The notes under the pieces: model-generated
What the model was told of the DNA's origin: nothing
The model's input: the letters and a program-made list of their open reading frames with translations, nothing else
The model's database searches: none
Made by a program: the position numbers and the translations under genes
In this document: positions 3,919 through 63,925 of the stretch, one piece after another
Layout: each line of letters starts with the position of its first letter
Numbering within the stretch: the first letter of the stretch is position 1
Virus record (IMG/VR): IMGVR_UViG_3300010002_000010
Span: 27,949-91,948 of that record
DNA length: 64,000 nucleotides
Strand: one strand, 5' to 3'
From: a virus
Taxonomy: Duplodnaviria; Heunggongvirae; Uroviricota; Caudoviricetes

Positions 3919-4106
3919 TATTTTTCCTCCTCATAACAGATCAACAAACAAGAAAAGTTAATCCCATCTTTATAATACGGTGTTGTTTGATATTGTAATT
4001 CAATCTTCCCAAATCTTTGATATTTTAATATTGCTTCTTCAAGCTGGATCTTAAATATTGTTGAATCTGTATTTACTACAAGATGAGTATAGATAATTTT
4101 CCCCAT
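3918..4106 (-). CDS. hypothetical protein (62 aa)
   Basis: ORF with RBS aaaggaggaag; translationally coupled to its neighbours. Confidence 0.5.
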   Translation of the reverse strand: MGKIIYTHLVVNTDSTIFKIQLEEAILKYQRFGKIELQYQTTPYYKDGINFSCLLICYEEEK

Positions 4107-4282
4107 TATACTTCCTCCTTTTTATAAGCAAACAGAATAACTTCCATTAAAACATTAACAAAAAATATCCCACCAAATACAGATACGATAATAAAATTAT
4201 CCATATTAAAAACAGGTTGAATTAAAAACCAAGTAAAAGCAAGAAAGTACATTGTCATTGTTATAAAAACCGTCTTTGTCAT
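4106..4282 (-). CDS. small hydrophobic membrane protein (58 aa); not in the ORF track
   Basis: MTKTVFITMTMYFLAFTWFLIQPVF...; RBS aaaggatga; its stop overlaps the next start. Confidence 0.4.
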   Translation of the reverse strand: MTKTVFITMTMYFLAFTWFLIQPVFNMDNFIIVSVFGGIFFVNVLMEVILFAYKKEEV

Positions 4283-4308
4283 TTAGATCATCCTTTCTTA
4301 TTATTTAC

Positions 4309-4336
4309 ATTATACTTGATTTTTAAAATAAGTAAA
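4309..4336 (-). promoter_or_regulatory. conserved phage promoter (minus-strand TTTACT-N16-TATAATgtaaa) for the 4282-3436 operon
   Basis: Plus strand reads ttatttacattatacttg...agtaaagaaaa; belongs to the ~25-copy family. Confidence 0.6.
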
Positions 4337-4357
4337 GAAAAATAATAAAATTATTGA

Positions 4358-4420
4358 GCTCTGTATTGCGTTGAGTTGGCGGTATGCCTTACCCATTTAA
4401 TTTCATTGCACCACAGGAGC
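4358..4420. repeat. palindromic hairpin element, copy A (arms GCTCTGTATTGCGTTGAG / GCACCACAGGAGC around a ~30-nt loop)
   Basis: The 17-18-nt arm motif recurs at 11513-11574 and 12963-13025 in both orientations. Confidence 0.55.
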
Positions 4421-4452
4421 AATCTGAAAAGATCCAAATAAAAAAACGTCCC

Positions 4453-4710
4453 TCAATAGAGGAACATCTTTTTGTCTTTGATGAATGGTTCTCCGCTTTT
4501 ATATTCCTTTGTTGATAAAGGACCTGCAAATAATTTCATATTAGAATCCAAAAGCATATATACATTAATTCCCCGGTCGATTCCTTTTACAATGAAAAGT
4601 TCTACAACCTCAAATGCTTTTTTCAATAAAGATCCATATTCCATTTTAGCTTCAATGTACGGAAGAATAATATTTGTTTCTTTGTCCCAGATATATTTTT
4701 CGAGTTTCAT
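4453..4710 (-). CDS. hypothetical protein (85 aa)
   Basis: ORF with an imperfect hairpin plus T-run terminator at ~4437-4470. Confidence 0.5.
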   Translation of the reverse strand: MKLEKYIWDKETNIILPYIEAKMEYGSLLKKAFEVVELFIVKGIDRGINVYMLLDSNMKLFAGPLSTKEYKSGEPFIKDKKMFLY

Positions 4711-4782
4711 TTATAACAGCTCCTTCTTATTTATAATTTAATTATACTATATTATTGAGGATCCGTATATAATTTAAGTAAA

Positions 4783-4808
4783 AAAAAATCCCTCGAAAGG
4801 GATTAATT
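4783..4808 (-). terminator. rho-independent terminator
   Basis: tccctc-gaaa-gggat hairpin flanked by A/T runs. Confidence 0.7.
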
Positions 4809-4809
4809 T

Positions 4810-5208
4810 TTAGATCTTATCATAGAACATTGCTCTGTCAATAGTGCTTTTAATACCATTGATTGGATTTTCCCCAACAATAGTTCTTTTAGTTTTATCA
4901 TTTTGTAAAAGCTTGAATAACAGAGCTTCGTTTTTATTTGATTTAATATAGAACATAGATCCGATTTCTAATTCATTAAGAACCTTCATTCGTTTTTCTT
5001 TTTCTTCTTGCGGGTTAGAGTTTGCAATGACTTCTTTAATTCCAGCAATTGGAATTGAATAAGGAATGCCATTCATTTTTCCAACAAACTTAACTCGCTT
5101 AGCTTCAACGAACTCGCATTCTTGTCCGTTTTTTAGTTTAATAGTATCTCCTTGGTTTGCGGATGCAATCATGTTGATCTGTTCAAAAGTAGGTTGTTGA
5201 GTTGTCAT
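4810..5208 (-). CDS. hypothetical protein (132 aa)
   Basis: ORF with its own promoter and terminator. Confidence 0.6.
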   Translation of the reverse strand: MTTQQPTFEQINMIASANQGDTIKLKNGQECEFVEAKRVKFVGKMNGIPYSIPIAGIKEVIANSNPQEEKEKRMKVLNELEIGSMFYIKSNKNEALLFKLLQNDKTKRTIVGENPINGIKSTIDRAMFYDKI

Positions 5209-5257
5209 TTTAAATTCCTTCTTTCATGTATGGTTTTTTGTTTCTGTCTTCTATTTA

Positions 5258-5286
5258 ATTATACAACAGTGCGCAAAAATTGTAAA
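5258..5286 (-). promoter_or_regulatory. sigma-A-like promoter TTTACA-N17-TATAAT (minus strand)
   Basis: Reverse complement of tgtaaa (5281-5286) and attata (5258-5263); a terminator hairpin (atccc-aatta-aggga) sits immediately upstream at 5291-5318. Confidence 0.65.
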
Positions 5287-5310
5287 TAAAAAAATCCCAA
5301 TTAAGGGATT

Positions 5311-5637
5311 TTAATTTCTAAGATATTCTTCTTCTTCTAAAATAACATCCCAAACATACGGAGAAACATACAGATTTCTAAATGAGTTATTTCCAATTTT
5401 CTTGAAGATCTGATACCAATATGAGTCTCCTCCGTAAGATAACTTTTCTTGATTTTCAAGAACGGATATTGTATTTGTTATTACAACATTATATGCAAAC
5501 TTGAATAGTTCAGCAGACGTATCAGGTATGAACCAAAGACTTCCGGTCGAAGAAACTAACGTAACCGAATTTTCCGCGAGACATGCGAAGCAAAGATTGT
5601 TGTCATCCAGATATTTAATTTGTTGATCTGTTGTCAT
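5311..5637 (-). CDS. hypothetical protein (108 aa), paralog of 5736-6050
   Basis: N-terminus MTTDQQIKYLDDNNLCFACLAENSVTLV aligns with MKTNQDLQHLVEKNLTFVCVTDTSVTLV. Confidence 0.6.
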   Translation of the reverse strand: MTTDQQIKYLDDNNLCFACLAENSVTLVSSTGSLWFIPDTSAELFKFAYNVVITNTISVLENQEKLSYGGDSYWYQIFKKIGNNSFRNLYVSPYVWDVILEEEEYLRN

Positions 5638-5675
5638 TTTAAAAACTCCTCAAAATGTATTTTGTCTTCTATTTA

Positions 5676-5704
5676 ATTATACGTCAGCGCGGAAAAAATG
5701 TAAA
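5676..5704 (-). promoter_or_regulatory. sigma-A-like promoter TTTACA-N17-TATAAT (minus strand)
   Basis: attata at 5676-5681 and tgtaaa at 5699-5704; terminator hairpin directly upstream. Confidence 0.65.
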
Positions 5705-5735
5705 TAAAAAACCCCGATTTCTCGAGGTTTTATTT

Positions 5736-6050
5736 TTATTTCATTTTCTTAATTTCTTCGAAGATCTCATGTTTCACGAAGAAGTTATAAATGTTGTCAT
5801 CCCATTTTGTATCTTCTTCAATTTTCATCCAGAAATTATCCAATCCATAATGAGTTATCATATCTTGTTCTTCAAACTCAGAAACAATATTCTCATTGAC
5901 AAGTTTCTGTACGTCTTCAAAAATTGGATTTTCCATTGGGATGTAATACAGATTATCATTTTTTGGAACGAGTGTTACAGATGTATCTGTGACACACACA
6001 AACGTTAAATTTTTTTCTACGAGATGTTGAAGATCTTGATTTGTTTTCAT
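5736..6050 (-). CDS. hypothetical protein (104 aa), paralog of 5311-5637
   Basis: Paralogy read directly from the N-terminal alignment. Confidence 0.6.
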   Translation of the reverse strand: MKTNQDLQHLVEKNLTFVCVTDTSVTLVPKNDNLYYIPMENPIFEDVQKLVNENIVSEFEEQDMITHYGLDNFWMKIEEDTKWDDNIYNFFVKHEIFEEIKKMK

Positions 6051-6089
6051 TTTAAAAGCCCCTTTGTTTTTTAATTACCTTACAATTTA

Positions 6090-6118
6090 ATTATACGTCA
6101 TATTCCCGCAGATGTAAA
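6090..6118 (-). promoter_or_regulatory. sigma-A-like promoter TTTACA-N17-TATAAT (minus strand)
   Basis: attata at 6090-6095 and tgtaaa at 6113-6118; terminator hairpin at 6121-6148. Confidence 0.65.
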
Positions 6119-6148
6119 TAAAAAAATCCCAATTAAGGGATTTTATTT

Positions 6149-6526
6149 TTACATGAATGTTGTATTGAAAATGTTTTCAAGTTCTTCGAATTGTGAATTA
6201 TTAATGAGATAATGTTTTTCTTCAAGATCTTTGAAACGTCCAACATACGGGATTGAGATTGTATTTGGATTGTTTAAGATGAAATGTCGCGAATCAAGAT
6301 ATGCTCGTTCGTTTACAAAACATAAGATCTCATTGTACGCAGGAATGACTTCAATGACTTTTGTTTTCTCATTGATTGTTACAAACGAATAATTGATATT
6401 ATCCATTTCTTCGTGCATAGAACTAATGATGTCATCCATATTCATTGTTTCTGTTTCTGTCATTTCTGAAAGATCTCGGATTTTCATAATCGATTCGTTC
6501 ATCTGTTCAATTGTCAAGTTTTTCAT
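6149..6526 (-). CDS. hypothetical protein (125 aa)
   Basis: Start moved to the ATG at 6526 (MKNLTIEQ...) with RBS aaaggacg; the track ORF is longer at its 5' end. Confidence 0.55.
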   Translation of the reverse strand: MKNLTIEQMNESIMKIRDLSEMTETETMNMDDIISSMHEEMDNINYSFVTINEKTKVIEVIPAYNEILCFVNERAYLDSRHFILNNPNTISIPYVGRFKDLEEKHYLINNSQFEELENIFNTTFM

Positions 6527-6657
6527 TTTTACACGTCCTTTGTTTTTTTTTGTTTTAATCTTCCTTACATATATAATTATAACATGATCTGCGGGATTTG
6601 TGTTGATTTTATTGAAAATAATTAAAAAAACTTTTTTATTTATTTTTCTAAAAACTA

Positions 6658-6686
6658 TGTACAAAGCCCGTAAATCTTAGTATAAT
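6658..6686 (+). promoter_or_regulatory. plus-strand early promoter TGTACAaagccc-N-TATAAT
   Basis: tgtaca at 6658-6663, 17-nt spacer beginning aagccc, tataat at 6681-6686. Confidence 0.6.
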
Positions 6687-6742
6687 AAATTATAGAGTTA
6701 ATTAACAGCGACTCTAAAAAACTTAGAAACGAGTTGAAAAAA

Positions 6743-6943
6743 ATGAACTTACATGATTTAAATGAGTATCGAAAACAGAAAATGCAGAATGAAAATTATC
6801 AGATTCAAGTTAGATCTTTATTGAATCCAGACGAACTAAAACAATTCAATAAAGCCATTGCACAAGGACAATACATGCAAGCCGTAAACATTGCGACTCC
6901 TGCAATCAACAAGAAGTTACAAGACACATACGGATTGAAATAA
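6743..6943 (+). CDS. hypothetical protein (~66 aa)
   Basis: ATG at 6743 (the track ORF begins at a TTG at 6734); terminator downstream. Confidence 0.5.
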   Translation: MNLHDLNEYRKQKMQNENYQIQVRSLLNPDELKQFNKAIAQGQYMQAVNIATPAINKKLQDTYGLK

Positions 6944-6944
6944 G

Positions 6945-6975
6945 ACAGATCGGCTTCGGCCGATCTTTTTATTTT
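6945..6975 (+). terminator. rho-independent terminator
   Basis: agatcggc-ttcg-gccgatct followed by ttttatttttt. Confidence 0.75.
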
Positions 6976-7612
6976 TTCCCGTTTTTTAAATCTTAAAGTG
7001 CCGTTTTGAAATTGTCAGAATATTCCGAATGTTCCGTTTTTAATGCCGGAAATTTTTTCAATATTCCGAATTTTCGGAATTGTCTGAATATTCATAAAAC
7101 TCGAAGTGCCGTGAATTATCAGAAAATTCTGAATATTCGATCTATTATAATTTTTAAAATATTCTAAATATTCCGACAATTTGAAAACTCGAAAGATTTA
7201 GAATTATCTAAATATTCGAAATTATCTGAACATTCGAAGTTGTCAGAATATTCCGATCATTGTAAATTGTCAGAATATTTCGAATTGATCGACAATTTGG
7301 AATTGTCAGAATATTCAGATCATTCAAAATATTCATAATTTTCCGCCGACGAACCACCGCAAATTATTTTAATATTCCGAATATTACGAATATTCCGACA
7401 ATTCTAAATAGATCGAATTTTCTGAATATTCCGAATAATTTGAATTTTCCGAATTGTCAGACTATTCAGAATTTATTGAATTAACGCCTATGAAAGAATA
7501 TTCCGACAATTCAATTTTTACAATAATCGAAATATTCCGAATATTTTGAAAATTCAAATTGATCGAAAATTCAGAATATTTGTAATATAAAATAACTATT
7601 TTAAAATGTGAA
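6976..7612. repeat. repeat array R1: about 20 copies of the GAATATTC-centred motif (full site approx TTGTCAGAATATTCTGACAA, half-site GAATATTCCGACAATTC) in both orientations
   Basis: Counted directly; contains the variant GTGCCGTGAATT and the GC island CCGCCGACGAACCACCG at 7343-7359. Confidence 0.9.
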
Positions 7613-7621
7613 ATAAAAAAA

Positions 7622-7648
7622 ATGGGATTCTTTCGAATCCCGAATGAT
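7622..7648 (-). terminator. rho-independent terminator for 7656-7907
   Basis: gggattc-tttcg-aatccc with a T-run on the minus strand. Confidence 0.7.
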
Positions 7649-7655
7649 TTGTTTC

Positions 7656-7907
7656 TTAAAGTAAGTTATTCAATTCTTCAACATGTTTTGAAACTCGATT
7701 TGCTTGAAGAATGAAAATTGTCAATCCTTGTGGACTCATTTCATTTTCATGAAACTTAATTACGAAATGATTTGAGATCGGATTGTGAGATAATGTCACT
7801 TCTGAAATCGGATTGTCAAAGTGAAAACGGCCAAACGAATATGTCGCATTTGCATATCCTAATTCTTCAAGTTTTGAAATTACGTTTTGTACTGTTTTGT
7901 AATTCAT
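7656..7907 (-). CDS. hypothetical protein (83 aa), possible helix-turn-helix DNA-binding protein
   Basis: RBS aaaggacg; the N-terminal KTVQNVISKLEELGYANAT segment looks like an HTH (weak). Confidence 0.5.
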   Translation of the reverse strand: MNYKTVQNVISKLEELGYANATYSFGRFHFDNPISEVTLSHNPISNHFVIKFHENEMSPQGLTIFILQANRVSKHVEELNNLL

Positions 7908-8026
7908 TTTTCAACGTCCTTTATTTTGTATTTAAGGTCTTTTGTTTGTCTCAACCTTATATATTAATTATACATCTAAAGCCCACAAAAGTACACAGTT
8001 TTTGGAAATTAAATTGTAAAACTTTT

Positions 8027-8160
8027 AGAAACAATTCTGACAATTTAATATGATCGTGTCAGAATATTCTGACAATTCAAAAAAACTTAATTGTCGGAAT
8101 TTTCAGAATATTAAAACAATGAAGCCGCAATTGTCAGAATTGTTCTAAAAAATAATACAA
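8027..8160. repeat. repeat array R2: about 4 copies of the GAATATTC motif, including the perfect palindrome GTCAGAATATTCTGAC
   Basis: Read directly. Confidence 0.85.
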
Positions 8161-8179
8161 ATTAATTTCCGTAAAACTG

Positions 8180-8208
8180 TGTACAAAGCCCATTTTAAAT
8201 GTTATAAT
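8180..8208 (+). promoter_or_regulatory. plus-strand early promoter TGTACAaagccc-N-TGtTATAAT
   Basis: tgtaca at 8180-8185, tataat at 8203-8208, 17-nt spacer. Confidence 0.65.
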
Positions 8209-8260
8209 ATATATAAGAGGTTAAGTAATTGATCTCAAAAACGAAAAGAGGATGATGAAA

Positions 8261-8434
8261 ATGTTACAAGAAACTGCAAAATGTTTACAAGAACTTTCAG
8301 AAAACGGATTTTACAAATTTGAAAACGAAATGTTCGATTTTGAAAATGTTGTTGAATTAGTAAATCCAATTCTCAAATCTTTGAAAGTTGATTTTGAAGT
8401 AAATAACGAAAAAGAAGAAATCAAAATTTTCTAA
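8261..8434 (+). CDS. hypothetical protein (57 aa)
   Basis: Third in-frame ATG chosen (aagagg RBS, 9-nt spacing); terminator follows at 8436-8465. Confidence 0.5.
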   Translation: MLQETAKCLQELSENGFYKFENEMFDFENVVELVNPILKSLKVDFEVNNEKEEIKIF

Positions 8435-8464
8435 AATGAAAGAGTCGAAAGACTCTTTTCATTT

Positions 8465-8905
8465 TGTTTTCAATTGTCAGACAATTCTGAAAATTCTGAA
8501 TCGATCATTGTTTGAATTTTTGGAATATTCAGACAATTCGAAATATTCAGGAAATTTAGAAAAGTCGTTAAATTCAGAATATTCAGATAATTCAGAATAG
8601 TCGTTAAATTCAGACAATTCAAAATGGCCGCAATATTCGAACAATTCAGAATATTCTGACAATTCGAAATGATCTAAATATTCAGACAATTCAAAATATT
8701 CTGACTAATTAGAATTGGCGCTTAATTCAGAATATTCCGACAATTACGACAATTATGAATATTCTAATAATTCGAAATATTCAGAATTTTCTGATAATTT
8801 GCGGTGGTTCGTCGGCGGGACAAATAGATCGAAGATTGAGAATATTCCGACAATTCAGAATATTGAAAAAATTCACGGCACATTACTCAGAATATTCTGA
8901 CAATT
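8465..8905. repeat. repeat array R3: about 13 copies of the GAATATTC motif; contains TAATTTGCGGTGGTTCGTCGGCGG at 8794-8818
   Basis: Counted directly; the repeat-derived ORFs 8477-8689 and 8715-8900 are artefacts. Confidence 0.9.
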
Positions 8906-8907
8906 CC

Positions 8908-8933
8908 AAAATATAAAAAATCCCAAAATGGGA
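8908..8933 (-). terminator. rho-independent terminator for 8934-9233
   Basis: atccca-aaa-tgggat with a T-run on the minus strand. Confidence 0.7.
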
Positions 8934-9233
8934 TTATTTAAAAGATCTTCTGTATTGAGAAGTGACTTTACGTCTGAGATTTGAGAGCCATGTAGAGTCC
9001 TGTGTCGCTCTGTATGACTCAATAGCATTGTCATAGTCATCTGTATTAACTTCAAAAAAGTAGTGATTTAATACATCTTCATCTGCGACGAGAGCTAGTT
9101 CTTTATGATAGATACTATTTTCTTTTTTGAAAAACCAGATCTCATTTTCTCGTTTTTCAATTTCGTAAAATGCTCCAGAAATGATTGTAGGATTTGTAAT
9201 TGTTTTCATAAGCATAACTATTTTTCGTGGCAT
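8934..9233 (-). CDS. hypothetical protein (~99 aa)
   Basis: Start set to the third ATG (9233), which has 9-nt spacing from aaaaagg. Confidence 0.5.
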   Translation of the reverse strand: MPRKIVMLMKTITNPTIISGAFYEIEKRENEIWFFKKENSIYHKELALVADEDVLNHYFFEVNTDDYDNAIESYRATQDSTWLSNLRRKVTSQYRRSFK

Positions 9234-9360
9234 TTTCATCATCCTTTTTTCTGTATTTTAGATCTGCATGAAACAGCTCATAAGAAAATTGTACTACAAA
9301 ATTTCCGCAATGTACATAGTTTTTAAATAAAAAAAAATAAAAAGAATTTCCATAAAACTA

Positions 9361-9389
9361 TGTACATTTGCGGGAATTACTGTTATAAT
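9361..9389 (+). promoter_or_regulatory. plus-strand early promoter TGTACA-N17-TGtTATAAT
   Basis: tgtaca at 9361-9366, tataat at 9384-9389. Confidence 0.65.
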
Positions 9390-9443
9390 AAATATATAAG
9401 GTTAAGCAATTAATCTTAAATAAAAACGAAATGAGTTGAGAAA

Positions 9444-9686
9444 ATGTTAGTCAAAGAAACAGAGCAAGCTCTGAAAGATCTAATGAAACTTGACAAAGTA
9501 GAATTATTAACAACGAAAGGAAAAATTCAAACTTGGTTCGTGTGTGAAAAAAACGGACAACAAGTCATTCTAAGAACGTTTCACTACATGAGCAATAACA
9601 AAAAGAACGTTTCGATCTGTGAACTAATGACACTTGAAAACGGAAAAACAATTTGGTACCCACGAAAAAAATTCATAAATGTATGA
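9444..9686 (+). CDS. hypothetical protein (80 aa)
   Basis: Conserved leader upstream; terminator at 9688-9716 (aaagagccgcgaggctcttt). Confidence 0.55.
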   Translation: MLVKETEQALKDLMKLDKVELLTTKGKIQTWFVCEKNGQQVILRTFHYMSNNKKNVSICELMTLENGKTIWYPRKKFINV

Positions 9687-9719
9687 AAATGAAAAAGAGC
9701 CGCGAGGCTCTTTTCATTT

Positions 9720-10035
9720 GTCATTTTCAATTGTCGGAATATTCTAAATAATTAGAAAGATCGAAAAATTGAATTGTCAGAATATTCTTTCACAAGCGCT
9801 AATTCACAATATTCTGACAATTCAGAATTGTCATTAAATTCAGAATATTTAGAAAATAAAAAATGTTTTTAGATCATTTTGAATATTCAGATAATTTAAA
9901 ATATTCAAAAGATTGAAAAAATTCGCGGCTCTTAAAACAGAACGTTTTGATAATTCTAAATATTCTGACAATTTCGAATATTCTGAAAATTACGAATATT
10001 CAGAAGATTGAAAAAATTCACAGCACGTTAGCTTT
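9720..10035. repeat. repeat array R4: about 9 copies of the GAATATTC motif
   Basis: Counted directly. Confidence 0.9.
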
Positions 10036-10099
10036 TAAAGATCTAGAAAAAACAACATTATAATAGATAAAAATAATTTAAAGAACTTTTAAAAAAGCT

Positions 10100-10128
10100 A
10101 GCACAAAGCCCGCAGAACGCGTTATAAT
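10100..10128 (+). promoter_or_regulatory. plus-strand early promoter AGCACAaagccc-N-TATAAT
   Basis: Read directly; 17-nt spacer. Confidence 0.55.
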
Positions 10129-10180
10129 ATTATTAAGAGATGAGTTATTGATCTCAAATAAAACGAAATGAGCTGATAAC

Positions 10181-10543
10181 ATGATTATCAACGACACAAA
10201 CACAGAAGCTTACAATCTTCAAAAAAACGCAAAAATGTATCTTTTAAAAGAAGATTCAAAAAAACTCGATCTTTCAAAAGCTTCATATGTTTTCGTAACA
10301 GATTCTCTTAAAGATTCAAAAAACATTAAGTCTGTTTCTTGGCTCGACGAAGATGATTCAGATGAAGTATATTTTCTTTCATACATGACAAATGAAGAAA
10401 TTGAAAATGAGCTTGTTGAAGTTGATTTTTACTTCTTAGAAAGAATTAGAAATTGTTACAGAAATACAAAACAATCTTATCTTCAAAATTACAAAGATGC
10501 TTGCAATGTCTGTGACTTAGAACTTGAAAAATTAACAAAGTGA
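10181..10543 (+). CDS. hypothetical protein (120 aa), paralog of 10685-11035
   Basis: Shared segments ...LSKASYVFV... and ...YQNYKD.C..C.LELEKLTK. Confidence 0.6.
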   Translation: MIINDTNTEAYNLQKNAKMYLLKEDSKKLDLSKASYVFVTDSLKDSKNIKSVSWLDEDDSDEVYFLSYMTNEEIENELVEVDFYFLERIRNCYRNTKQSYLQNYKDACNVCDLELEKLTK

Positions 10544-10684
10544 AATATTAAAAACAAGAGCTTTCGAGCTTTTGTTTTTTTTTATTTTTTTTAAAAATTT
10601 ATAACAAAAATCCCGCAAAACATGTTATAATGATATTAGAGATGAGCTGTTGATCTTAAAAAAAATGAAATGAGATGATTTAAA

Positions 10685-11035
10685 ATGAACTTTGAAAAAA
10701 ACACAGACGCTTCAAGATTAGTTGAGATTGCAGATATGTATCTTCTTCGAGAAGATTCAAAACAGATTGATCTTTCGAAAGCATCATACGTCTTCGTTTT
10801 AAAAGCTTTTGAACATTCAAAAGAAATCTATTGGATAGATCAAGATGATAATTTCAAAGTCGAATGGACGTGCTTAATGAAAAATGAAGATATTGAAAAA
10901 CAACTTGTAAAAGTTAGCTCAGGCTTTTTAGAAAAAGTTATTGCAATTTACAACAACAAAGAACAAACGTATTATCAAAATTATAAAGATGATTGTAAGC
11001 TCTGTGAACTAGAACTTGAAAAACTAACAAAATAA
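10685..11035 (+). CDS. hypothetical protein (116 aa), paralog of 10181-10543
   Basis: Tandem duplication that includes the promoter and leader; terminator at ~11041-11085. Confidence 0.6.
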   Translation: MNFEKNTDASRLVEIADMYLLREDSKQIDLSKASYVFVLKAFEHSKEIYWIDQDDNFKVEWTCLMKNEDIEKQLVKVSSGFLEKVIAIYNNKEQTYYQNYKDDCKLCELELEKLTK

Positions 11036-11164
11036 AAGATCTGAAACAAGAGTTAAAAGCTCTTGTTTTTTTTTATTTATTTTCATTTTTTTTAACACAA
11101 AGCCCGCAAGCTGTGTTATAATTATAAATGTAAGACAAATACAAAACTTGAGAGGATGTTTAAA

Positions 11165-11461
11165 ATGTACTATATTTTAACAAAAGATCTAAATGACGAA
11201 ATGCGAGAATTTTCAATGTTTGCAGTGAGTATTCATTTCAACTTAAGAACTACTAAGAAAGAAACTTACAACGTGTTTGAAGCTATTAATGTAGATGAAA
11301 AAATTCTCATTAAAACATTCGAACAGAAAGAATTTGAAAGTCTTTTCATTGAAACTTCTGAAGAAAATTTCAAGAAATATAAAGATCTTGTTGAAAATGC
11401 AAACTTTGAAGATGCAGAAGATCTTTCAATTAGTCTTGTTGAAGCTCATAACAAAAAATAA
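11165..11461 (+). CDS. hypothetical protein (~98 aa)
   Basis: Start at the ATG at 11165 (gagagg RBS, 9-nt spacing); terminator aatctctc-attt-gagagatt at 11468-11497. Confidence 0.55.
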   Translation: MYYILTKDLNDEMREFSMFAVSIHFNLRTTKKETYNVFEAINVDEKILIKTFEQKEFESLFIETSEENFKKYKDLVENANFEDAEDLSISLVEAHNKK

Positions 11462-11512
11462 TTAATGAAGAATCTCTCATTTGAGAGATTTTTTATTTGC
11501 GGATTTTTAAAT

Positions 11513-11574
11513 GCTCTGAGTTGCAACGAGTAGTATGAACGTCTTACTCAATTAAGTTCGTCGCAACACAGAGC
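11513..11574. repeat. palindromic hairpin element, copy C (GCTCTGAGTTGCAACGA ... TCGTCGCAACACAGAGC, ~28-nt loop)
   Basis: 17-nt imperfect inverted arms between convergent terminators. Confidence 0.6.
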
Positions 11575-11593
11575 TCATTTGATTTTTCAATAT

Positions 11594-11638
11594 AACATTA
11601 AAATATAAAAAAAGAAGATCCGTTAGGATCTTCAATTT
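11594..11638 (-). terminator. rho-independent terminator for 11640-12101
   Basis: gaagatcc-gtta-ggatcttc with a T-run on the minus strand. Confidence 0.7.
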
Positions 11639-11639
11639 A

Positions 11640-12101
11640 TTATTCGTTAACTTCTTCAATGTTTGTGATTTGGAAAGTTGCAAGGGCTTTTTTGTTACGT
11701 CCGCGAAGCAAGTACCAAAGAATGTCATTGCGGAATGTAGTTCCATGTTTTTCATTGTAATATTCCGCAAAATCTTTATTTGAGAAGAACTCTTTAGTTT
11801 CTCCGTCTTCAGTTGTAACACGAACCATTGAAGAGTTACGACGTCCTGGAGTGCTTGAAGTTTTTTGAGCTTGAGCTTCGCGGTTTAATTGAGCGTCTTG
11901 TTCGATTTGTTCAACGATTTCTGATTTTTCCCCAGTCATTTCTGTGTGTTGTAATTCAAGGATTGCAGAAACGAGTTGAGATTGTTTCATTTTCCATGCT
12001 CCGTGAATCTCATAGTTTTTGTCTTTGATGATCTGTTTAAGTTCCGCAACTTTCATTCCTTCGAGTTGAGTCGCTGTGTACGTTGTAGTTGTCTGTGTCA
12101 T
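11640..12101 (-). CDS. hypothetical protein (153 aa) with an N-terminal SAP/Rho-N-like helix pair
   Basis: LEGMKVAELKQIIKDKNYEIHGAWKMKQSQLVSAI resembles a SAP/Rho_N motif (weak). Confidence 0.5.
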   Translation of the reverse strand: MTQTTTTYTATQLEGMKVAELKQIIKDKNYEIHGAWKMKQSQLVSAILELQHTEMTGEKSEIVEQIEQDAQLNREAQAQKTSSTPGRRNSSMVRVTTEDGETKEFFSNKDFAEYYNEKHGTTFRNDILWYLLRGRNKKALATFQITNIEEVNE

Positions 12102-12317
12102 TTTAATTTCCTCCTAGTAGTTGGGTTTGTTTGATTTGTTATTACCTTATATACTTATTATAGGCCATTTTTAATGGGATGTACACTGTTTTATCCAAAT
12201 TCTTTTGTTTTTTTTAAAAAAACTTTTTTCTTTAATTTCCAAAAAACTAACACAGATCTATGGAAATAGTGTATAATAAAGAAGTAAGGTAATTCAAATT
12301 TAAGGAGCTGTTAGAAA

Positions 12318-12674
12318 ATGAAAACTAAGACGTATATTGTGAATCCAAAAGACAAGAATTTTGGAGGGTATCTAGTATTTACAGAAGAATGGTTAGAAGA
12401 TTCAATTACAATGGTTGAAGACGCTTTGGTACCTGGATCTTACTTTGGAGTAAAAACAGAAAACCTAATGGAACTCAAAAAGAAAGAAGCTAAATGGCTT
12501 TTCGATTTTGATGAAGTTACTTCTGTTCCAAAAAGCATTCGCTCGACCTATATCAATTTGCTTCCGTTCAAGTATAGATTTGAAACAGATGATTATCATG
12601 AAAGATTCCATGTTCGAAAATCCATTTTATTAACCGCATACTTCGGCGGGAATCCTGAAACTTATTTAGGATAA
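12318..12674 (+). CDS. hypothetical protein (118 aa)
   Basis: RBS ttaaggagc; promoter AACACA-N17-TATAAT at ~12249-12277. Confidence 0.55.
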   Translation: MKTKTYIVNPKDKNFGGYLVFTEEWLEDSITMVEDALVPGSYFGVKTENLMELKKKEAKWLFDFDEVTSVPKSIRSTYINLLPFKYRFETDDYHERFHVRKSILLTAYFGGNPETYLG

Positions 12675-12696
12675 TTAATAAAAAGTAATATACGGA

Positions 12697-12738
12697 TCTT
12701 GCTCTAAGTGTTATAATATACTTAAGAGCAAGATTTTT
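12697..12738 (+). terminator. terminator hairpin with a TATAAT -10 box in its loop (atcttgctct-aagtgttataatatactta-agagcaagat-tttttt)
   Basis: 10-bp perfect stem plus T-run; TATAAT at 12712-12717 lies in the loop, upstream of the 12761 gene. Confidence 0.6.
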
Positions 12739-12760
12739 TAATTCAAAGGAGGAAATTAAA

Positions 12761-12934
12761 ATGAACAGAGGAAATGCGAGACGCGGAATGAAAGTGCATA
12801 CAACATATTCAGAATATCCTAATGTAAAAGGTATTATTGTTTCAATTGGATATAATTGGGTATTGATTCGAGATGAAAAAGGAAAAGAAGACAGACATCC
12901 GCTTTTATCGGTCGAAGAAATTTTAGGATCCTAA
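12761..12934 (+). CDS. hypothetical small protein (57 aa); not in the ORF track
   Basis: RBS caaaggaggaaattaaa; terminator aggatcc-taac-ggatcct at 12925-12955. Confidence 0.45.
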   Translation: MNRGNARRGMKVHTTYSEYPNVKGIIVSIGYNWVLIRDEKGKEDRHPLLSVEEILGS

Positions 12935-12962
12935 CGGATCCTTTTTTATTTACTTTGAATTA

Positions 12963-13025
12963 GCTCTGTGTCGCAACGAAATACTTTTTGCAAGGGGTAT
13001 GACCAGCTCAACGCAATACAGGAGC
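12963..13025. repeat. palindromic hairpin element, copy B (GCTCTGTGTCGCAACGA ... GCTCAACGCAATACAGGAGC)
   Basis: Same arm motif as copies A and C; lies between convergent terminators. Confidence 0.6.
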
Positions 13026-15593: not shown

Positions 15594-15740
15594 GTGCTTT
15601 CATCCCTTTCTTATTAAAATAAATTAGGCCAAAATGCCTATATCTATATTTTTATTATACACTCTTTTTACTGTAATGTATATTAATTTGATCTACAATT
15701 TAAAGTTTTTTGCAATATTCTAAAAATAAAAAAGATAGCG

Positions 15741-43704: not shown

Positions 43705-43998
43705 TTATCTTTTTGTTAATGTTACCATGTATTTAAGAGCAGTACTCATTTTTTTAACAGGTCGAACACCAACCGGAATGTTGTCATTAGATCCTGAGTA
43801 AACATCTTCATAAACACAGAAGTTGTCTTTTTCATCTTCTGGGCACTCAATTACAAATGAGCGGTTGCCGTAGAAAAACATTACAGTTTCATCAATCGAT
43901 ATTACTTGTGTAAAACAATGTCCGTTGGCTCCTTCTTTTAAAAGTTTTTCTCCTTTCTCTTTGATCTGTTCAACAATGTTTCTTGTGTAGTCTGTCAT
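43705..43998 (-). CDS. hypothetical protein (~97 aa)
   Basis: Start at the ATG at 43998 with RBS ggagga; has a long GC-rich 5' leader. Confidence 0.5.
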   Translation of the reverse strand: MTDYTRNIVEQIKEKGEKLLKEGANGHCFTQVISIDETVMFFYGNRSFVIECPEDEKDNFCVYEDVYSGSNDNIPVGVRPVKKMSTALKYMVTLTKR

Positions 43999-44019
43999 TT
44001 TAATTCCTCCAATTAATGT

Positions 44020-44100
44020 ATTTAGGAGCATCTTCCGTCTTGGCGTCAATCTAGGTCGCTCAGGCTAATTGCCGTCGTGGCGTACTCCGCTCGGAAAGAT
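44020..44100 (-). ncRNA. GC-rich structured 5' leader between the TGTACA promoter and the 43998 start codon
   Basis: ~80-nt GC-rich block (ggcgtcaatctaggtcgctcaggc...gccgtcgtggcgtactccgctcgg) downstream of the -10 at 44127. Confidence 0.4.
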
Positions 44101-44126
44101 CTTATTTGCTTGCTCTCTATATATTA

Positions 44127-44155
44127 ATTATACTCTGTATTCCCACAACTGTACA
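44127..44155 (-). promoter_or_regulatory. TGTACA-N17-TATAAT promoter (minus strand)
   Basis: attata at 44127-44132 and tgtaca at 44150-44155. Confidence 0.6.
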
Positions 44156-48361: not shown

Positions 48362-49783
48362 TTAACACAGGTTAGATGAGTAAATCATACCGGCATGTTT
48401 ATTTGGGTTATTACGGTTTACTGTATCGCGGTAGAACATATATGGTGTTCCTGTTTCAAGCTGAGAAATCTCAAACTTTTTAACAAGATCCAAAGCGTTT
48501 ACACGTGTTTTTGCTAATTCTTGGTTATCAATACATAATTGGTAATGATAAGTCCAAGCATGATCTGTTGGATTTGGTTTTTCTTTCTCACCAAGAAGCT
48601 TATTATCGTAAAAGTCTTCTAAATGGAATCCCATAACATCTTTGATTTCATGCGGATCAAACAAATACCAGTCGCCTCGTTTTTCAATTTGACGCATAAA
48701 TTCATCTGGAATTGTGATCCCTGTGAATAATTCATGAGCCCGTTCTGCCTTGTCACCGGTATTTAATCGCAACTCAAGGAAACGAACAATATCTTTATGC
48801 CAAATATCAAGATAAACAGCGATCGCACCAGGACGAACACCTAATTGATCGACTGAAACGGCTGTGTTATTTAATTGGCGGATCCAAGGAATTACACCTG
48901 ATCCAACACCATGGAACCCTTTAATCGAAGATCCTCGACCGCGAACTTTACCAAGATAGACACCAAGTCCAGCACCATTTTTACTGAAAGTTGCAATATC
49001 TGTATTGTCATCATAGATCCCGCGAAGTGAATCAGGTGTTGTAACAACGTAACAACTCGATAAACCCCCATCAATTCGTCCCGCATTTGATAATGTTGGT
49101 GTCGCCAGTGTGAGATAAAGATTTGATAATGCAAAGTACAATTCTTTGACATGATCCATTCGATCTTTTTTCTCTTCCATCATTAATGTCAAAGCCGCGA
49201 TCATAAACCGTTCTTGCGGTAGCTCATAAATCGATTTATCAAAATCTTTTACCAAATACCGATTTGCAAGTGCTTGGATTCCAGCAAAATCAAATAGTTC
49301 ATCTTTTGATGGATCAATCATTTGACCAGCAAGGATTAGATCTTCCCGGGTATAATTTTTTAATAATTCAGGTGTGTAAAGACGTTTATCTGTCAACGTT
49401 TTAATGAGGCCATAAAAATCACCATACATTAGTTTTGAATCATAAAAACGGTTTTTAGAGGCTCGCTTGTATAATTCTTGTTGAAAAATATATCGTGCCA
49501 TTTTTGTCCAGTTTACATTCAGTAATGTTTCGCTAGAAACTACACCATCTTCGTTTTTGATCCGATTAGCCAGAACAGTAGATTCTTGAATTAAAATCTT
49601 GCGGATGTCTTTGGCTTCAATATCCGGTCGTTGAGAAATTAAGCGGATTACTTTTTCAGCATATTCGCTTTTTGTTTCTTCTGGTAGTTTAACTTTTTCA
49701 AATCCTTTTCCAATAAAATCCATTAAACGTGAAGCGCTAAATTCCATTGATCGTTGCCCGTTATCTTTTAAAACCGTTGTCAT
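48362..49783 (-). CDS. nrdE: ribonucleotide reductase alpha subunit NrdE, exon 1 (N-terminal 473 aa ending SSNLC)
   Basis: Class I RNR alpha architecture ending at the active-site SNLC; RBS aaaggagag. Confidence 0.85.
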   Translation of the reverse strand: MTTVLKDNGQRSMEFSASRLMDFIGKGFEKVKLPEETKSEYAEKVIRLISQRPDIEAKDIRKILIQESTVLANRIKNEDGVVSSETLLNVNWTKMARYIFQQELYKRASKNRFYDSKLMYGDFYGLIKTLTDKRLYTPELLKNYTREDLILAGQMIDPSKDELFDFAGIQALANRYLVKDFDKSIYELPQERFMIAALTLMMEEKKDRMDHVKELYFALSNLYLTLATPTLSNAGRIDGGLSSCYVVTTPDSLRGIYDDNTDIATFSKNGAGLGVYLGKVRGRGSSIKGFHGVGSGVIPWIRQLNNTAVSVDQLGVRPGAIAVYLDIWHKDIVRFLELRLNTGDKAERAHELFTGITIPDEFMRQIEKRGDWYLFDPHEIKDVMGFHLEDFYDNKLLGEKEKPNPTDHAWTYHYQLCIDNQELAKTRVNALDLVKKFEISQLETGTPYMFYRDTVNRNNPNKHAGMIYSSNLC

Positions 49784-54602: not shown

Positions 54603-54720
54603 ATTATACTTAACTTTTTCATTTAGTAATGAAAATTGTTAAATATTTTTTATAAGAGAGTTTTTTAATTTTCTCTCTTACTGTTATATTATACTTGCAA
54701 AGTAGAATTAGTAAAGATAA
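54603..54720 (-). promoter_or_regulatory. two tandem conserved phage promoters (-10 boxes at 54603-54608 and 54688-54693)
   Basis: gttacttttatattatacttaac and ctgttatattatacttgcaaagtagaattagtaaagataa read directly. Confidence 0.55.
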
Positions 54721-63888: not shown

Positions 63889-63925
63889 TATTATACTTAA
63901 AAAAAAGCATTTGTAAAGGTCATTT
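63889..63925 (-). promoter_or_regulatory. conserved phage promoter TTTACA-N-TATAATATAAcag reading leftward into a ~560-nt region with no ORF
   Basis: caactgttatattatacttaaaaaaaagcatttgtaaaggtca read directly. Confidence 0.5.

What the first reader, a model, noticed from the sequence alone, without database searches (positions are those of the whole stretch)
8180..11160. Plus-strand early genes carry a second promoter class (TGTACAaagccc-N-TGtTATAAT) plus a conserved ~45-nt leader with a covarying 5'-terminal hairpin
The leaders of the genes starting at 8261, 9444, 10181 and 10685 (and partly 6743) align: TATAAT-N5-7-aAGAG(G/A)T-N9-11-ATCT(C/T)AAA-AAAACGAAATGAG-N-ATG. The predicted 5' end forms a 5-bp stem with a 10-nt loop, and the stem covaries between copies (GAGGU/AUCUC, AAGGU/AUCUU, GAGAU/AUCUC, GAGAU/AUCUU). 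This argues for a selected RNA structure rather than mere duplication. A 5'-terminal stem-loop is the classic protection against 5'-end-dependent decay (RNase J/Y) in Bacillus. It could equally be a binding site for a translational regulator. The genes, promoters and leaders have been duplicated as cassettes (paralog pair 10181-10543 / 10685-11035).
Basis: seen in the sequence. Interest (0 to 1): 0.5.

Follow-up and report, generated by a model that had tools for sequence, protein, structure and literature searches.

The report
Phage early-gene cassettes with 5'-end hairpins
A phage of a low-GC Gram-positive host carries a row of tiny single-gene units whose messages are predicted to begin with a small RNA hairpin, most likely a shield against RNA decay from the 5' end; this is a tidy example of known principles, not a new kind of system.

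Summary
The motif is real.

Three corrections:
- The promoters are ordinary sigma-A-type (T[G/T]TACA or ACACA, 17 nt, TATAAT, often TGn). The same types drive minus-strand genes. TGTACA and the AAGCCC block are separable.
- The hairpins of genes 8261 and 9444 are 8-9 bp stems with GNRA tetraloops (-7.7 and -6.2 kcal/mol), not 5 bp with a 10-nt loop.
- Hairpins starting 7-9 nt after the -10 also occur on non-homologous leaders (6681, 7972 minus, 54693, 15659).

Nine of 26 leaders have such a 5' hairpin against 1.2 expected (P~2e-5 after collapsing homologues). All 30 core stem cells pair, and sense folds beat antisense in 8 of 8. Two other strains show no stem-breaking change. Evidence remains thin: there are few independent copies, no distant relatives with the leader, and no mapped start sites. 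The 5' arm overlaps a start-site motif shared by all promoters here and in Geobacillus phage GR1.

Best reading: PeSL-like promoter-leader-ORFan-terminator cassettes with 5'-terminal stabiliser hairpins. This is a new member of a known kind, of modest interest. The phased CodY-box-like arrays between the cassettes are the stranger feature.

The parts
6658..6686 (+). Promoter P6681: -35 TGTACA, spacer AAGCCCGTA..., -10 TATAAT
6693..6716 (+). 5'-terminal hairpin UAGAGUU-N10-GACUCUA of the gene 6743 leader (7 bp). Not homologous in its loop or 3' flank to the other four plus-strand leaders.
8180..8208 (+). Promoter P8203: TGTACA, AAGCCC block, TGTTATAAT
8217..8236 (+). Hairpin GAGGUUAA-GUAA-UUGAUCUC: 8 bp including 2 G.U, GNRA tetraloop, -7.7 kcal/mol in the leader context
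8237..8260 (+). A-rich linker and Shine-Dalgarno region (AAAGAGGA) before the ATG at 8261
8438..8459 (+). Intrinsic terminator of cassette 8261; homologous to the terminator at 9693-9714
   Evidence: (D13)
9361..9389 (+). Promoter P9384: TGTACA, inverted GC block TGCGGGAAT, TGTTATAAT
9397..9418 (+). Hairpin UAAGGUUAA-GCAA-UUAAUCUUA: 9 bp, GNRA tetraloop, -6.2 kcal/mol. Strain L201 has GCAAA in the loop and the stem is intact.
9693..9714 (+). Intrinsic terminator of cassette 9444
10100..10128 (+). Promoter P10123: AGCACA, AAGCCCGCA, CGTTATAAT. Strains L185 and L201 have AACACA; L185 also has TGTTATAAT.
10137..10155 (+). Hairpin GAGAU-N9-AUCUC: 5 bp, -5.0 kcal/mol in the leader context
10550..10579 (+). 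Intrinsic terminator of cassette 10181
10601..10631 (+). Promoter P10626: weak -35, AATCCCGCA block, TGTTATAAT
10639..10657 (+). Degenerate hairpin GAGAU-N9-AUCUU: 5 bp including G.U, -2.9 kcal/mol, no better than shuffles
11043..11069 (+). Intrinsic terminator of cassette 10685
7967..7995 (-). Promoter P7972 of minus-strand gene 7907: TGTACT, TGTGGGCTT block (GGGAAT in strain L201), TATAAT
7933..7959 (-). Hairpin UAAGGUU-N13-GACCUUA at the predicted 5' end of the minus-strand gene 7907 leader: 7 bp, -5.5 kcal/mol
9261..9279 (-). Weak 5'-proximal hairpin of the P9293 leader (gene 9242), -4.3 kcal/mol. Strain L201 turns its U.G pair into U-A.
54652..54681 (-). 9-bp hairpin GUAAGAGAG-N12-CUCUCUUAU at the predicted start of a promoter of the other class (P54693): -9.3 kcal/mol, z = -4.6
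15619..15647 (-). 5'-terminal bulged hairpin after promoter P15659, between gyrB and gyrA: -8.2 kcal/mol

Best explanation
Window 4300-12800 is the early or accessory region of a roughly 90-kb siphophage of a low-GC Firmicute. It is built from monocistronic cassettes on both strands.

Each cassette has four parts:
- A host sigma-A-type promoter: -35 T[G/T]TACA or ACACA, a 17-nt spacer carrying a GC block, a perfect TATAAT, often preceded by TGn.
- A 35-55-nt leader.
- A small gene with no known relatives (ORFan).
- An intrinsic terminator.

An unstructured A-rich linker and the ribosome-binding site follow.

The most likely function (inferred) is a 5'-terminal stem-loop stabiliser. With fewer than 2-3 free 5' nucleotides, the RppH-type pyrophosphohydrolase cannot convert the triphosphate end. 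RNase J1 (5' exonuclease) and 5'-end-stimulated RNase Y then cannot engage, so these short early messages last longer.

The near-identity of four leaders comes from duplication and recombination of the promoter-leader module, in the manner of the PeSL cassettes of T4-type phages. Selection has kept the stem paired.

Shown: the anatomy, the positional enrichment of hairpins, and pairing-preserving variation. Inferred: the transcription start sites and the effect on decay.
For: - Architecture: promoters; terminators 22 against 3.3 expected; no Pfam hit for any small gene.
- MFE folds put a hairpin at nt 1-3 of the predicted transcript for 6681, 8203, 9384, 10123, 10626, 7972 and 54693 and for 15659. 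The rest of each folded leader is largely unpaired; 6681 has a second small hairpin.
- Enrichment, contiguous stems of 7 bp or more: 5 observed against 0.56 expected (P~1e-4); with homologues collapsed, 4 against 0.49 (P~6e-4).
- Enrichment, energy-defined 5' hairpins: 9 of 26 against 1.2 expected; collapsed, 7 against 1.08 (P~2e-5).
- Manual stem alignment of six leaders: 30 of 30 core cells paired, and 4 of 5 pairs show two or more pair types (GC, GU, AU).
- Loop lengths of 4, 4, 9, 9, 10 and 13 nt argue against a fixed-geometry DNA operator.
- Sense RNA is more stable than antisense in 8 of 8 hairpins.
- Strain L201: 2 changes in 107 hairpin nt, one loop insertion and one G.U to A-U, none disruptive. 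P8203 plus its leader differ at 2 of 81 positions against 29 of 174 in gene 8261 (P = 7e-4).
- Mechanistic premise: BsRppH needs at least 2, and prefers at least 3, unpaired 5' nt. 5' stem-loops stabilise aprE and ompA mRNAs (review PMC3997798 and its references to Hambraeus 2002 and Emory 1992).
Against: - No start site has been measured.
- Only about 4-7 independent hairpins exist, and no distant relative carries the leader.
- Within the four homologous copies, all stem changes are transitions, and only one pair is fully compensatory.
- The 10626 hairpin is no better than shuffled sequence.
- About two thirds of this phage's predicted transcripts lack any 5' hairpin, so it is not required for early expression.
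- The 5' arm overlaps a start-site motif (R-U-A-A-G-G / AGAG) that is conserved whether or not a 3' arm exists. In GR1 all 11 early promoters start AGAGAGAUA, but only 3 pass the energy criterion, against 0.65 expected.
- The stems are A/U-rich and modest in strength (-3 to -8 kcal/mol).
- Promoter-plus-leader conservation between strains is not significantly greater than that of the other non-coding DNA (P = 0.12).
Confidence: 0.45

Rival explanations
1. The conserved promoter-leader and terminator flanks are mainly substrates and relics of homologous recombination that shuffles ORFan cassettes, as with PeSLs. On this view the hairpin has no RNA function, and its pairing persists because the copies are young or are homogenised by gene conversion.
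For: - The 8203 and 9384 cassettes share promoter and leader (85% over 40 nt) and terminators (85%), yet their proteins are unrelated.
- There is a sharp conservation boundary at the ATG of gene 8261 between strains.
- Strain L185 has the two paralogs collapsed into one hybrid gene, which indicates unequal crossover.
- In L201 the P7972 spacer block switches GGGCTT to GGGAAT, the version found in other promoters; this looks like a conversion event.
- Identical terminator-promoter composites lie at 6123-6144 and 5291-5312.
- PeSL precedent: PMC2839356.
Against: - It does not explain hairpins of different sequence at the same position on non-homologous leaders (6681, 7972, 54693, 15659), nor their enrichment over shuffles.
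- It does not explain the G.U-only mismatches and the 8 of 8 sense-over-antisense asymmetry.
- It is compatible with the best explanation rather than exclusive of it.
Confidence: 0.2
2. The hairpin (or the inverted repeat in DNA) is a recognition site for a regulator. Candidates are a phage- or host-encoded RNA-binding translational repressor, an endoribonuclease that times early-gene shut-off, or a DNA operator overlapping +1.
For: - Loop sequences are partly conserved (GNRA tetraloops GUAA and GCAA; GAG-YU-UUG in the paralog pair).
- The stems are too weak to be very stable alone, so a protein partner is plausible.
- The promoters also carry a conserved GC block in the spacer. It occurs in either orientation at spacer positions 4-8, and 6 of the 10 CCCGC/GCGGG sites in the first 13 kb lie in spacers. 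This looks like a protein-binding site.
Against: - Loop length and sequence differ widely among hairpins (4 to 13 nt), and stem sequences differ, so there is no common recognition surface beyond AAGG/AGAG.
- The variable arm spacing and G.T mismatches argue against a dimeric DNA operator.
- No candidate regulator was identified.
- No Rfam family matches.
Confidence: 0.15
3. What is selected is the purine-rich, Shine-Dalgarno-like start of the transcript (UAAGGU, AAGAGGU, AGAGAG). It would serve as an initial-transcribed-sequence or start-site element, or as a 5' polypurine / STAB-SD-type stabiliser that binds 30S subunits. On this view the complementary 3' arms are incidental.
For: - Nearly all promoters in the window have (G/A)UAAG or AGAG 7-9 nt after the -10, regardless of class.
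- All 11 GR1 early promoters start AGAGAGAUA, and most have no 3' partner.
- Precedents: the SP82 polypurine stabiliser (Hue 1995) and STAB-SD (Agaisse and Lereclus 1996), as cited in PMC3997798.
Against: - With the 5' arm held fixed, shuffling only the downstream sequence shows that 3' partners are far more frequent than expected.
- In the hairpin leaders the SD-like arm is sequestered, which would defeat 30S binding.
- The 3' arms track differences in the 5' arms: AAGGU/ACCUU, AGAGU/ACUCU, GAGAU/AUCUC.
Confidence: 0.15

Closest known systems
5'-terminal stem-loop mRNA stabilisers (E. coli ompA and papA leaders; B. subtilis aprE leader; engineered 5' stem-loops)
   Same: A hairpin sits within 0-2 nt of the predicted 5' end, followed by an unstructured linker and the ribosome-binding site. 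The stem sequence is free to vary as long as it pairs. The setting is a Firmicute-type host, where 5'-end-dependent decay (RppH, RNase J1, RNase Y) dominates (PMC3997798).
   Different: The stems here are short and A/U-rich (-3 to -8 kcal/mol). The 5' ends are predicted, not mapped, and no half-life data exist. The element is repeated on many phage cassettes rather than being one cellular leader.
PeSL (promoter-early stem-loop) regulatory cassettes of T4-type phages (PMC2839356, PMC4122927)
   Same: Repeated composite motifs of a strong sigma-70-like early promoter plus a stem-loop, an SD and a start codon flank small ORFans in a plastic region. Closely related strains differ by cassette gain, loss or replacement. 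One described PeSL subclass has the stem-loop downstream of the -10.
   Different: PeSL stem-loops are GC-rich (GGGG...CCCC) and act as terminators or attenuators, mostly between or over the -35 and -10. Here the terminators are separate elements, and the leader hairpin is not followed by a U-tract. The host is Gram-positive and the phage a siphovirus. Mini-circles were not tested, and the one observed strain crossover lies in the 3' coding end of the paralogs, not in the promoter motif.
Polypurine / STAB-SD 5' stabilisers (phage SP82 early RNA; cryIIIA)
   Same: A purine-rich, SD-like sequence (AAGAGGU, UAAGGU) lies at the very 5' end of phage early transcripts in a Firmicute-type system.
   Different: In the hairpin-bearing leaders the SD-like segment is base-paired and so not free for the 30S subunit. 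STAB-SD acts as a single strand.
Early promoters of Geobacillus phage GR1 (OK896991), the nearest sequenced relative
   Same: Same promoter build: AAAAAGT-T[G/T]TAC[G/A]-N17-TATAAT-N6-7-AGAG... in front of small genes between gyrA and the integrase. A minority of leaders have GAGAG/CUCUC-type 5' hairpins followed by AAAUAAAAC.
   Different: All GR1 genes are on one strand. GR1 has no GC block at spacer positions 4-8 and no large CodY-box arrays. Its hairpin enrichment is weak, 3 against 0.65 expected. The leader sequences cannot be aligned with those of the window.

Membership tests
5'-terminal stem-loop mRNA stabiliser | The hairpin begins within a few nucleotides (fewer than about 3-4 unpaired) of the 5' end of the primary transcript | tested here: inconclusive
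   The hairpins start 7-9 nt after the -10 hexamer, which means 0-2 unpaired nt if transcription starts at the usual 7th nt. The start sites are predicted only.
5'-terminal stem-loop mRNA stabiliser | Structure rather than sequence is what is conserved | tested here: met
   30 of 30 core stem cells are paired, and 4 of 5 pairs show two or more pair types. Different stems sit at the same position on non-homologous leaders. There is no disruptive change in two other strains. The sample is small.
5'-terminal stem-loop mRNA stabiliser | Removing or unpairing the stem shortens mRNA half-life, and compensatory mutations restore it | not testable with these tools
   Needs reporter half-life measurements.
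PeSL-type mobile regulatory cassette | A repeated composite of a sigma-70-like early promoter, a stem-loop and an SD in the intergenic spaces of a plastic region rich in ORFans | tested here: met
   no Pfam hits for the small genes; no homologues beyond strain variants.
PeSL-type mobile regulatory cassette | The stem-loop of the composite acts as a transcription terminator or attenuator | tested here: not met
   The leader hairpins are followed by A-rich sequence, not U-rich, and are not picked up as terminators. Separate terminators exist. On the minus-strand cassettes at 5291-5312 and 6123-6144 the terminator does abut the -35, which is PeSL-like.
PeSL-type mobile regulatory cassette | Recombination between the repeated motifs produces cassette insertions, deletions or replacements between close relatives | tested here: inconclusive
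   Strain L185 lacks one paralog because of a crossover in the conserved 3' coding end. Strain L201 keeps the P8203 leader but has a gene 8261 that is 17% diverged. No crossover was mapped inside a promoter-leader motif.
STAB-SD / polypurine 5' stabiliser | A single-stranded SD-like sequence near the 5' end, available to bind the 30S subunit | tested here: not met
   In the hairpin leaders the SD-like arm is paired in the MFE and centroid structures. It is free only in leaders that lack a 3' arm.
Any curated RNA family (Rfam 15) | Match at the family's gathering score | tested here: not met
   There are no matches at gathering score in the window. With the E-value threshold, only sub-threshold chance hits appear, in the repeat arrays.
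Extended -10 (TGn) sigma-A promoter | TG at -15/-14 one base upstream of TATAAT | tested here: inconclusive
   TGTTATAAT is present at 8203, 9384, 10626, 11117, 12709 and 6581(-), 6 sites against 1.9 expected. It is absent at 6681, 7972 and 10123; strain L185 has TG at 10123.

The most novel reading that the evidence does not exclude
The hairpin plus the conserved AAGG/AGAG start could be a common 'early-transcript tag'. A phage- or host-encoded factor, such as an RNA-binding repressor or an endoribonuclease in the spirit of T4 RegA/RegB, would read it to switch the whole set of takeover genes on or off together. It would act alongside the GC block in the promoter spacers and the phased CodY-box-like arrays that separate the cassettes. 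The early region as a whole would then be a nutrient-sensing, co-ordinately shut-off host-takeover module.
Probability: 0.1. Interest if true: 0.6.

Novelty: new member of a known kind. Interest (0 to 1): 0.3.

Why it matters
If the hairpins do stabilise early messages, this phage shows how a virus of a Gram-positive host equips many small takeover genes with one portable promoter-leader module. That module would both drive expression and protect the RNA from 5'-end-dependent decay. It would also extend the T4-type 'regulatory cassette' mode of genome shuffling to an unrelated siphophage lineage. In practice, the 8-9-bp GNRA hairpin leaders are compact candidate 5' stabiliser parts for expression in Firmicutes. 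The finding does not open a new question; 5' stem-loop protection and cassette shuffling are both established.

Tried and rejected
- Searches for relatives carrying the leader all failed. A megablast of 8000-11500 against phages found nothing. Two promoter patterns scanned against viral contigs gave only single chance hits, none similar to the window by BLAST. A gyrA-based locus search in viral contigs found nothing. A leader pattern scanned against metagenome and genome contigs gave 12 chance hits with no similarity. Three protein searches returned only strain variants at 92-99% identity.
- MAFFT could not place the 5' arms in structural register. I therefore did not use the count of structure pairs and made a manual stem alignment instead.
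- I tested whether hairpin leaders compensate for weak ribosome-binding sites. Duplex energies with the 16S 3' end overlap between hairpin and non-hairpin leaders. Several start coordinates in that script were wrong, so the idea was dropped.
- I considered alternative pairing of the 3' arm with the SD (an anti-SD switch). Only 10626 offers 5 complementary bases, and MFE folds never choose that pairing. Rejected.
- I considered a DNA operator. It is disfavoured by the variable arm spacing and the sense-only G.T pairs.
- I considered the hairpin as a terminator or attenuator. There is no U-tract.
- The long GC-rich leader after P44132 is not more structured than shuffles (z = -0.74) and matches no Rfam family.


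Full report
**What the window is.** The large ORFs encode GyrA, GyrB, a PolIII alpha subunit, a DnaB helicase, a DHH phosphoesterase, ribonucleotide reductase, a ligase, an integrase and an endolysin. The PolIII alpha subunit is 62% identical to that of Geobacillus phage GR1. It is about 50% identical to those of the roughly 90-kb Staphylococcus phages SEP9 and 6ec and of Enterococcus phage 9183. No phage record matches at the DNA level. The same phage occurs in three metagenome assemblies. Two further strains, 92-97% identical, occur as short contigs: L185/L186 and L201. GC content is 28-30% in the region of interest. The host is unknown.

**Checking the observation.** No shuffle gives a match. 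The products of 10181 and 10685 are 53% identical, and the duplication covers promoter through terminator, 70.7% over 560 nt. The products of 8261 and 9444 are unrelated by BLASTP. Even so, their promoters and leaders are 85% identical over 40 nt, and their terminators are 85% identical (families D12 and D13). Terminator-like sites number 22 in 4000-13000 against 3.3 expected, and one follows every small gene. The region is therefore a set of monocistronic cassettes of promoter, leader, ORFan and terminator, lying on both strands.

**The promoters.** Listing every -35/-10 pair shows several sub-families, all built on a sigma-A-like frame: xxxACA, 16-17 nt, TATAAT.
- The type in the finding, AAAACTRTGTACA-N17-TATAAT, occurs at +6681, +8203 and +9384. 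It also occurs on the minus strand at 7972, 9293, 12162 and 44132.
- A second type, (A/G)CACA-AAGCCCGCA-N8-TATAAT, occurs at +10123, +10626, +11117 and -6581.
- The GC block sits at spacer positions 4-8 in either orientation, as AAGCCCGCA or as TGCGGGAAT / TGTGGGCTT. Six of the ten CCCGC/GCGGG sites in the first 13 kb lie in promoter spacers.
- TGTTATAAT occurs 6 times against 1.9 expected, but only about half of these promoters have the TG.
- The replication module uses a different, very uniform family: TTTTTCTTTAC[AT]-N13-AAG-TATAAT-ATAAAAGTAAG.
- GR1 uses T[G/T]TAC[G/A]-N17-TATAAT for its equivalent small genes, so TGTACA is simply this lineage's variant of the -35.

'A second promoter class of plus-strand genes' is therefore only partly right. 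There are distinguishable sub-families, but they are not strand-specific, and TGTACA and AAGCCC are independent features.

**The hairpins.** A systematic search and MFE folds show the structures are larger than described for two copies.
- 8203: GAGGUUAA-GUAA-UUGAUCUC, 8 bp, -7.7 kcal/mol.
- 9384: UAAGGUUAA-GCAA-UUAAUCUUA, 9 bp, -6.2 kcal/mol. Both this and the 8203 hairpin have GNRA tetraloops.
- 10123 and 10626: these keep only the outer 5 bp, at -5.0 and -2.9 kcal/mol. The 10626 hairpin is no better than shuffles.
- 6681: an unrelated 7-bp hairpin, UAGAGUU/GACUCUA.
- 7907 (minus strand): UAAGGUU-N13-GACCUUA, -5.5 kcal/mol.
- P54693 (the other promoter family): a 9-bp hairpin, -9.3 kcal/mol, z = -4.6.
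- P15659: a bulged hairpin, -8.2 kcal/mol.

All of them begin 7-9 nt after the -10 hexamer. That places them at +1 to +3 of a transcript starting at the usual position. The rest of each folded leader is predicted to be largely unpaired, apart from a second small hairpin in the 6681 leader.

**Is this more than chance?** I held the first 13-15 nt after the -10 fixed and shuffled only the downstream sequence.
- Contiguous 5'-terminal stems of 7 bp or more: 5 of 26 leaders against 0.56 expected (P~1e-4). Counting homologous leaders once gives 4 against 0.49 (P~6e-4).
- Stems of 5 bp or more: 9 against 4.4 expected, but only 6 against 3.8 (not significant) after collapsing.
- An energy-based criterion (at least 5 of the first 9 nt paired, -4 kcal/mol or better): 9 of 26 against 1.2 expected. 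Collapsed, 7 against 1.08, P~2e-5.

**Covariation.** MAFFT could not keep the arms in register, so I aligned six stems by hand. All 30 cells of the five core pairs are standard pairs.
- Pair 1 is GC, AU, GC, GU, AU, AU.
- Pair 4 is GU, GU, AU, AU, GC, GC.
- Pairs 2 and 3 are swapped on both sides in 6681, which can also be read as loss of one whole pair.
- Pair 5 never varies.

Among the four truly homologous leaders there is one fully compensatory exchange plus wobble intermediates. All changes are transitions, so this subset alone is weak evidence. The sense RNA folds better than the antisense for all eight hairpins, because every non-Watson-Crick pair is G.U and never A.C. The loops range from 4 to 13 nt. 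Both facts favour an RNA structure over a DNA palindrome.

**Other strains.** L201 covers 7250-10200. Its hairpins show 2 changes in 107 nt. One is an extra A in the 9384 loop (GCAA to GCAAA). The other is a U.G to U-A change in the weak 9293 hairpin. No stem-disrupting change occurs. P8203 plus its leader differ at 2 of 81 positions, while gene 8261 differs at 29 of 174 (P = 7e-4). Pooled, the promoter-leader units differ at 2.2% against 6.0% for the genes (P = 0.002), but they are not significantly more conserved than the other non-coding DNA (P = 0.12). In L185 the 10123 leader has 0 changes in 52 nt against about 4% nearby, which is not significant. L185 also has the two paralogs merged into one hybrid gene.

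**A caveat from the nearest relative.** In GR1 all 11 early promoters are followed by AGAGAGAUA(U/A)AAAUA. Only 3 of the 11 leaders pass the energy criterion for a 5'-terminal hairpin (43903, 53116, 53852), against 0.65 expected. A weaker GAGAG/CUCUU stem sits at 49039. In the window, nearly every promoter has (G/A)UAAG or AGAG at the start site. The 5' arm is thus partly a start-site or initial-transcribed motif in its own right. What is specific to the hairpin leaders is the matching 3' arm.

**Most likely mechanism.** With 0-2 unpaired 5' nucleotides, the triphosphate end should be a poor substrate for the RppH-type pyrophosphohydrolase. BsRppH needs at least 2, and prefers at least 3, unpaired nt (PMC3997798). 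The transcript would then be shielded from RNase J1 and from 5'-end-stimulated RNase Y, as described for the aprE and ompA 5' stem-loops (references in PMC3997798). This step is inferred. The repetition of the leader is best explained by duplication and recombination of a promoter-leader module, as for the PeSL cassettes of T4-type phages (PMC2839356). Selection would maintain the stem.

**Rivals.** Three alternatives remain: recombination relics with no RNA role, a regulator-binding tag, and selection on the purine-rich 5' end alone. Each is weighed with its evidence in the Rival explanations section.

**Comparison and novelty.** No Rfam family matches. By position and behaviour the element fits the 5'-terminal stem-loop stabilisers, and the region fits PeSL-like cassette architecture. 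It fails the PeSL criterion that the stem-loop is the terminator, and it fails the STAB-SD criterion of a free SD-like segment. I rate it a new member of a known kind, of modest interest (0.3).

**Seen in passing.** The non-transcribed spacers between cassettes are 130-600-bp arrays of 9-bp-phased repeats that match the CodY box AATTTTCWGAAAATT.
- There are 25 hits with 2 or fewer mismatches against 1.2 expected, and 24 of them lie inside the arrays.
- Spacings between consecutive hits are multiples of 9 in 34 of 48 cases.
- Nine nt is the offset of cooperative overlapping CodY sites (PMC10415144).

This is more unusual than the hairpins and deserves its own follow-up.

Noticed in passing
window 6990-7600, 8030-8140, 8460-8910, 9720-10015: The non-transcribed spacers between early cassettes are arrays of degenerate 9-bp-phased repeats resembling the CodY box AATTTTCWGAAAATT. 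There are 25 hits with 2 or fewer mismatches against 1.2 in shuffles, 24 of them inside the arrays. Hit spacings are multiples of 9 in 34 of 48 cases. Nine nt is the offset of overlapping cooperative CodY sites (PMC10415144). The arrays could recruit or titrate host CodY. GR1 has no such arrays (6 hits against 2 expected).
   Followed up: partly
window promoter spacers at 6105, 6591, 6666, 7982, 8188, 9370, 10109, 10612, 11103, 44142: A GC block (CCCGC or GCGGG; CCCAC or GTGGG in some) sits at spacer positions 4-8 of early promoters, in either orientation. Six of the 10 CCCGC/GCGGG sites in the first 13 kb lie in spacers. In strain L201 the P7972 block changes GGGCTT to GGGAAT. It may be a regulator site or a DNA-shape element.
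   Followed up: partly
window minus strand, -10 hexamers at 63895, 62164, 59719, 58556, 54693, 54608, 43645, 41530, 35293, 4314: A very uniform second promoter family runs through the replication module: TTTTTCTTTAC[AT]-N13-AAG-TATAAT-ATAAAAGTAAG. Conservation extends well beyond the hexamers. This may reflect a different temporal class or an accessory factor. GR1 encodes its own sigma-70-family protein.
   Followed up: no
whole window: GATC occurs 509 times and AGATCT 54 times in 64 kb. My rough base-composition estimate expects about 200 and about 22 (counts). Three of the four homologous hairpin 3' arms contain GATC.
   Followed up: no
L185 781-1143 versus window 10181-11035: A related strain has one hybrid gene where the window has the paralog pair. 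The junction lies in the conserved ELEKLTK 3' end, which indicates unequal crossover or duplication between cassettes.
   Followed up: partly
window 9693-9714 versus L185 ~293-316: The terminator loop is GCGA in the window and TCGC, its reverse complement, in L185, with an identical stem. The hairpin has flipped between strains.
   Followed up: no
window 5291-5312 and 6123-6144 (minus strand): Identical terminators (AAAATCCCTTAATTGGGATTTT) abut the TTTATTTACA -35 of the next promoter. These are repeated terminator-promoter composites of the PeSL type.
   Followed up: no
window 43994-44132 (minus strand): A TGTACA-type promoter inside the replication module drives an unusually long (~125 nt), GC-rich leader before a small gene with its ATG at 43996. 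The leader is not more structured than shuffles (z = -0.74) and has no Rfam match.
   Followed up: yes
L187/L188 (Geobacillus phage GR1; -10 hexamers at record positions 1065, 39990, 43903, 48676, 49039, 51105, 52559, 53116, 78373): All the GR1 early promoters examined are followed by the same initial transcribed sequence, AGAGAGAUA(U/A)AAAUA, whether or not a hairpin can form. This conserved start-of-transcript motif has no known function.
   Followed up: partly
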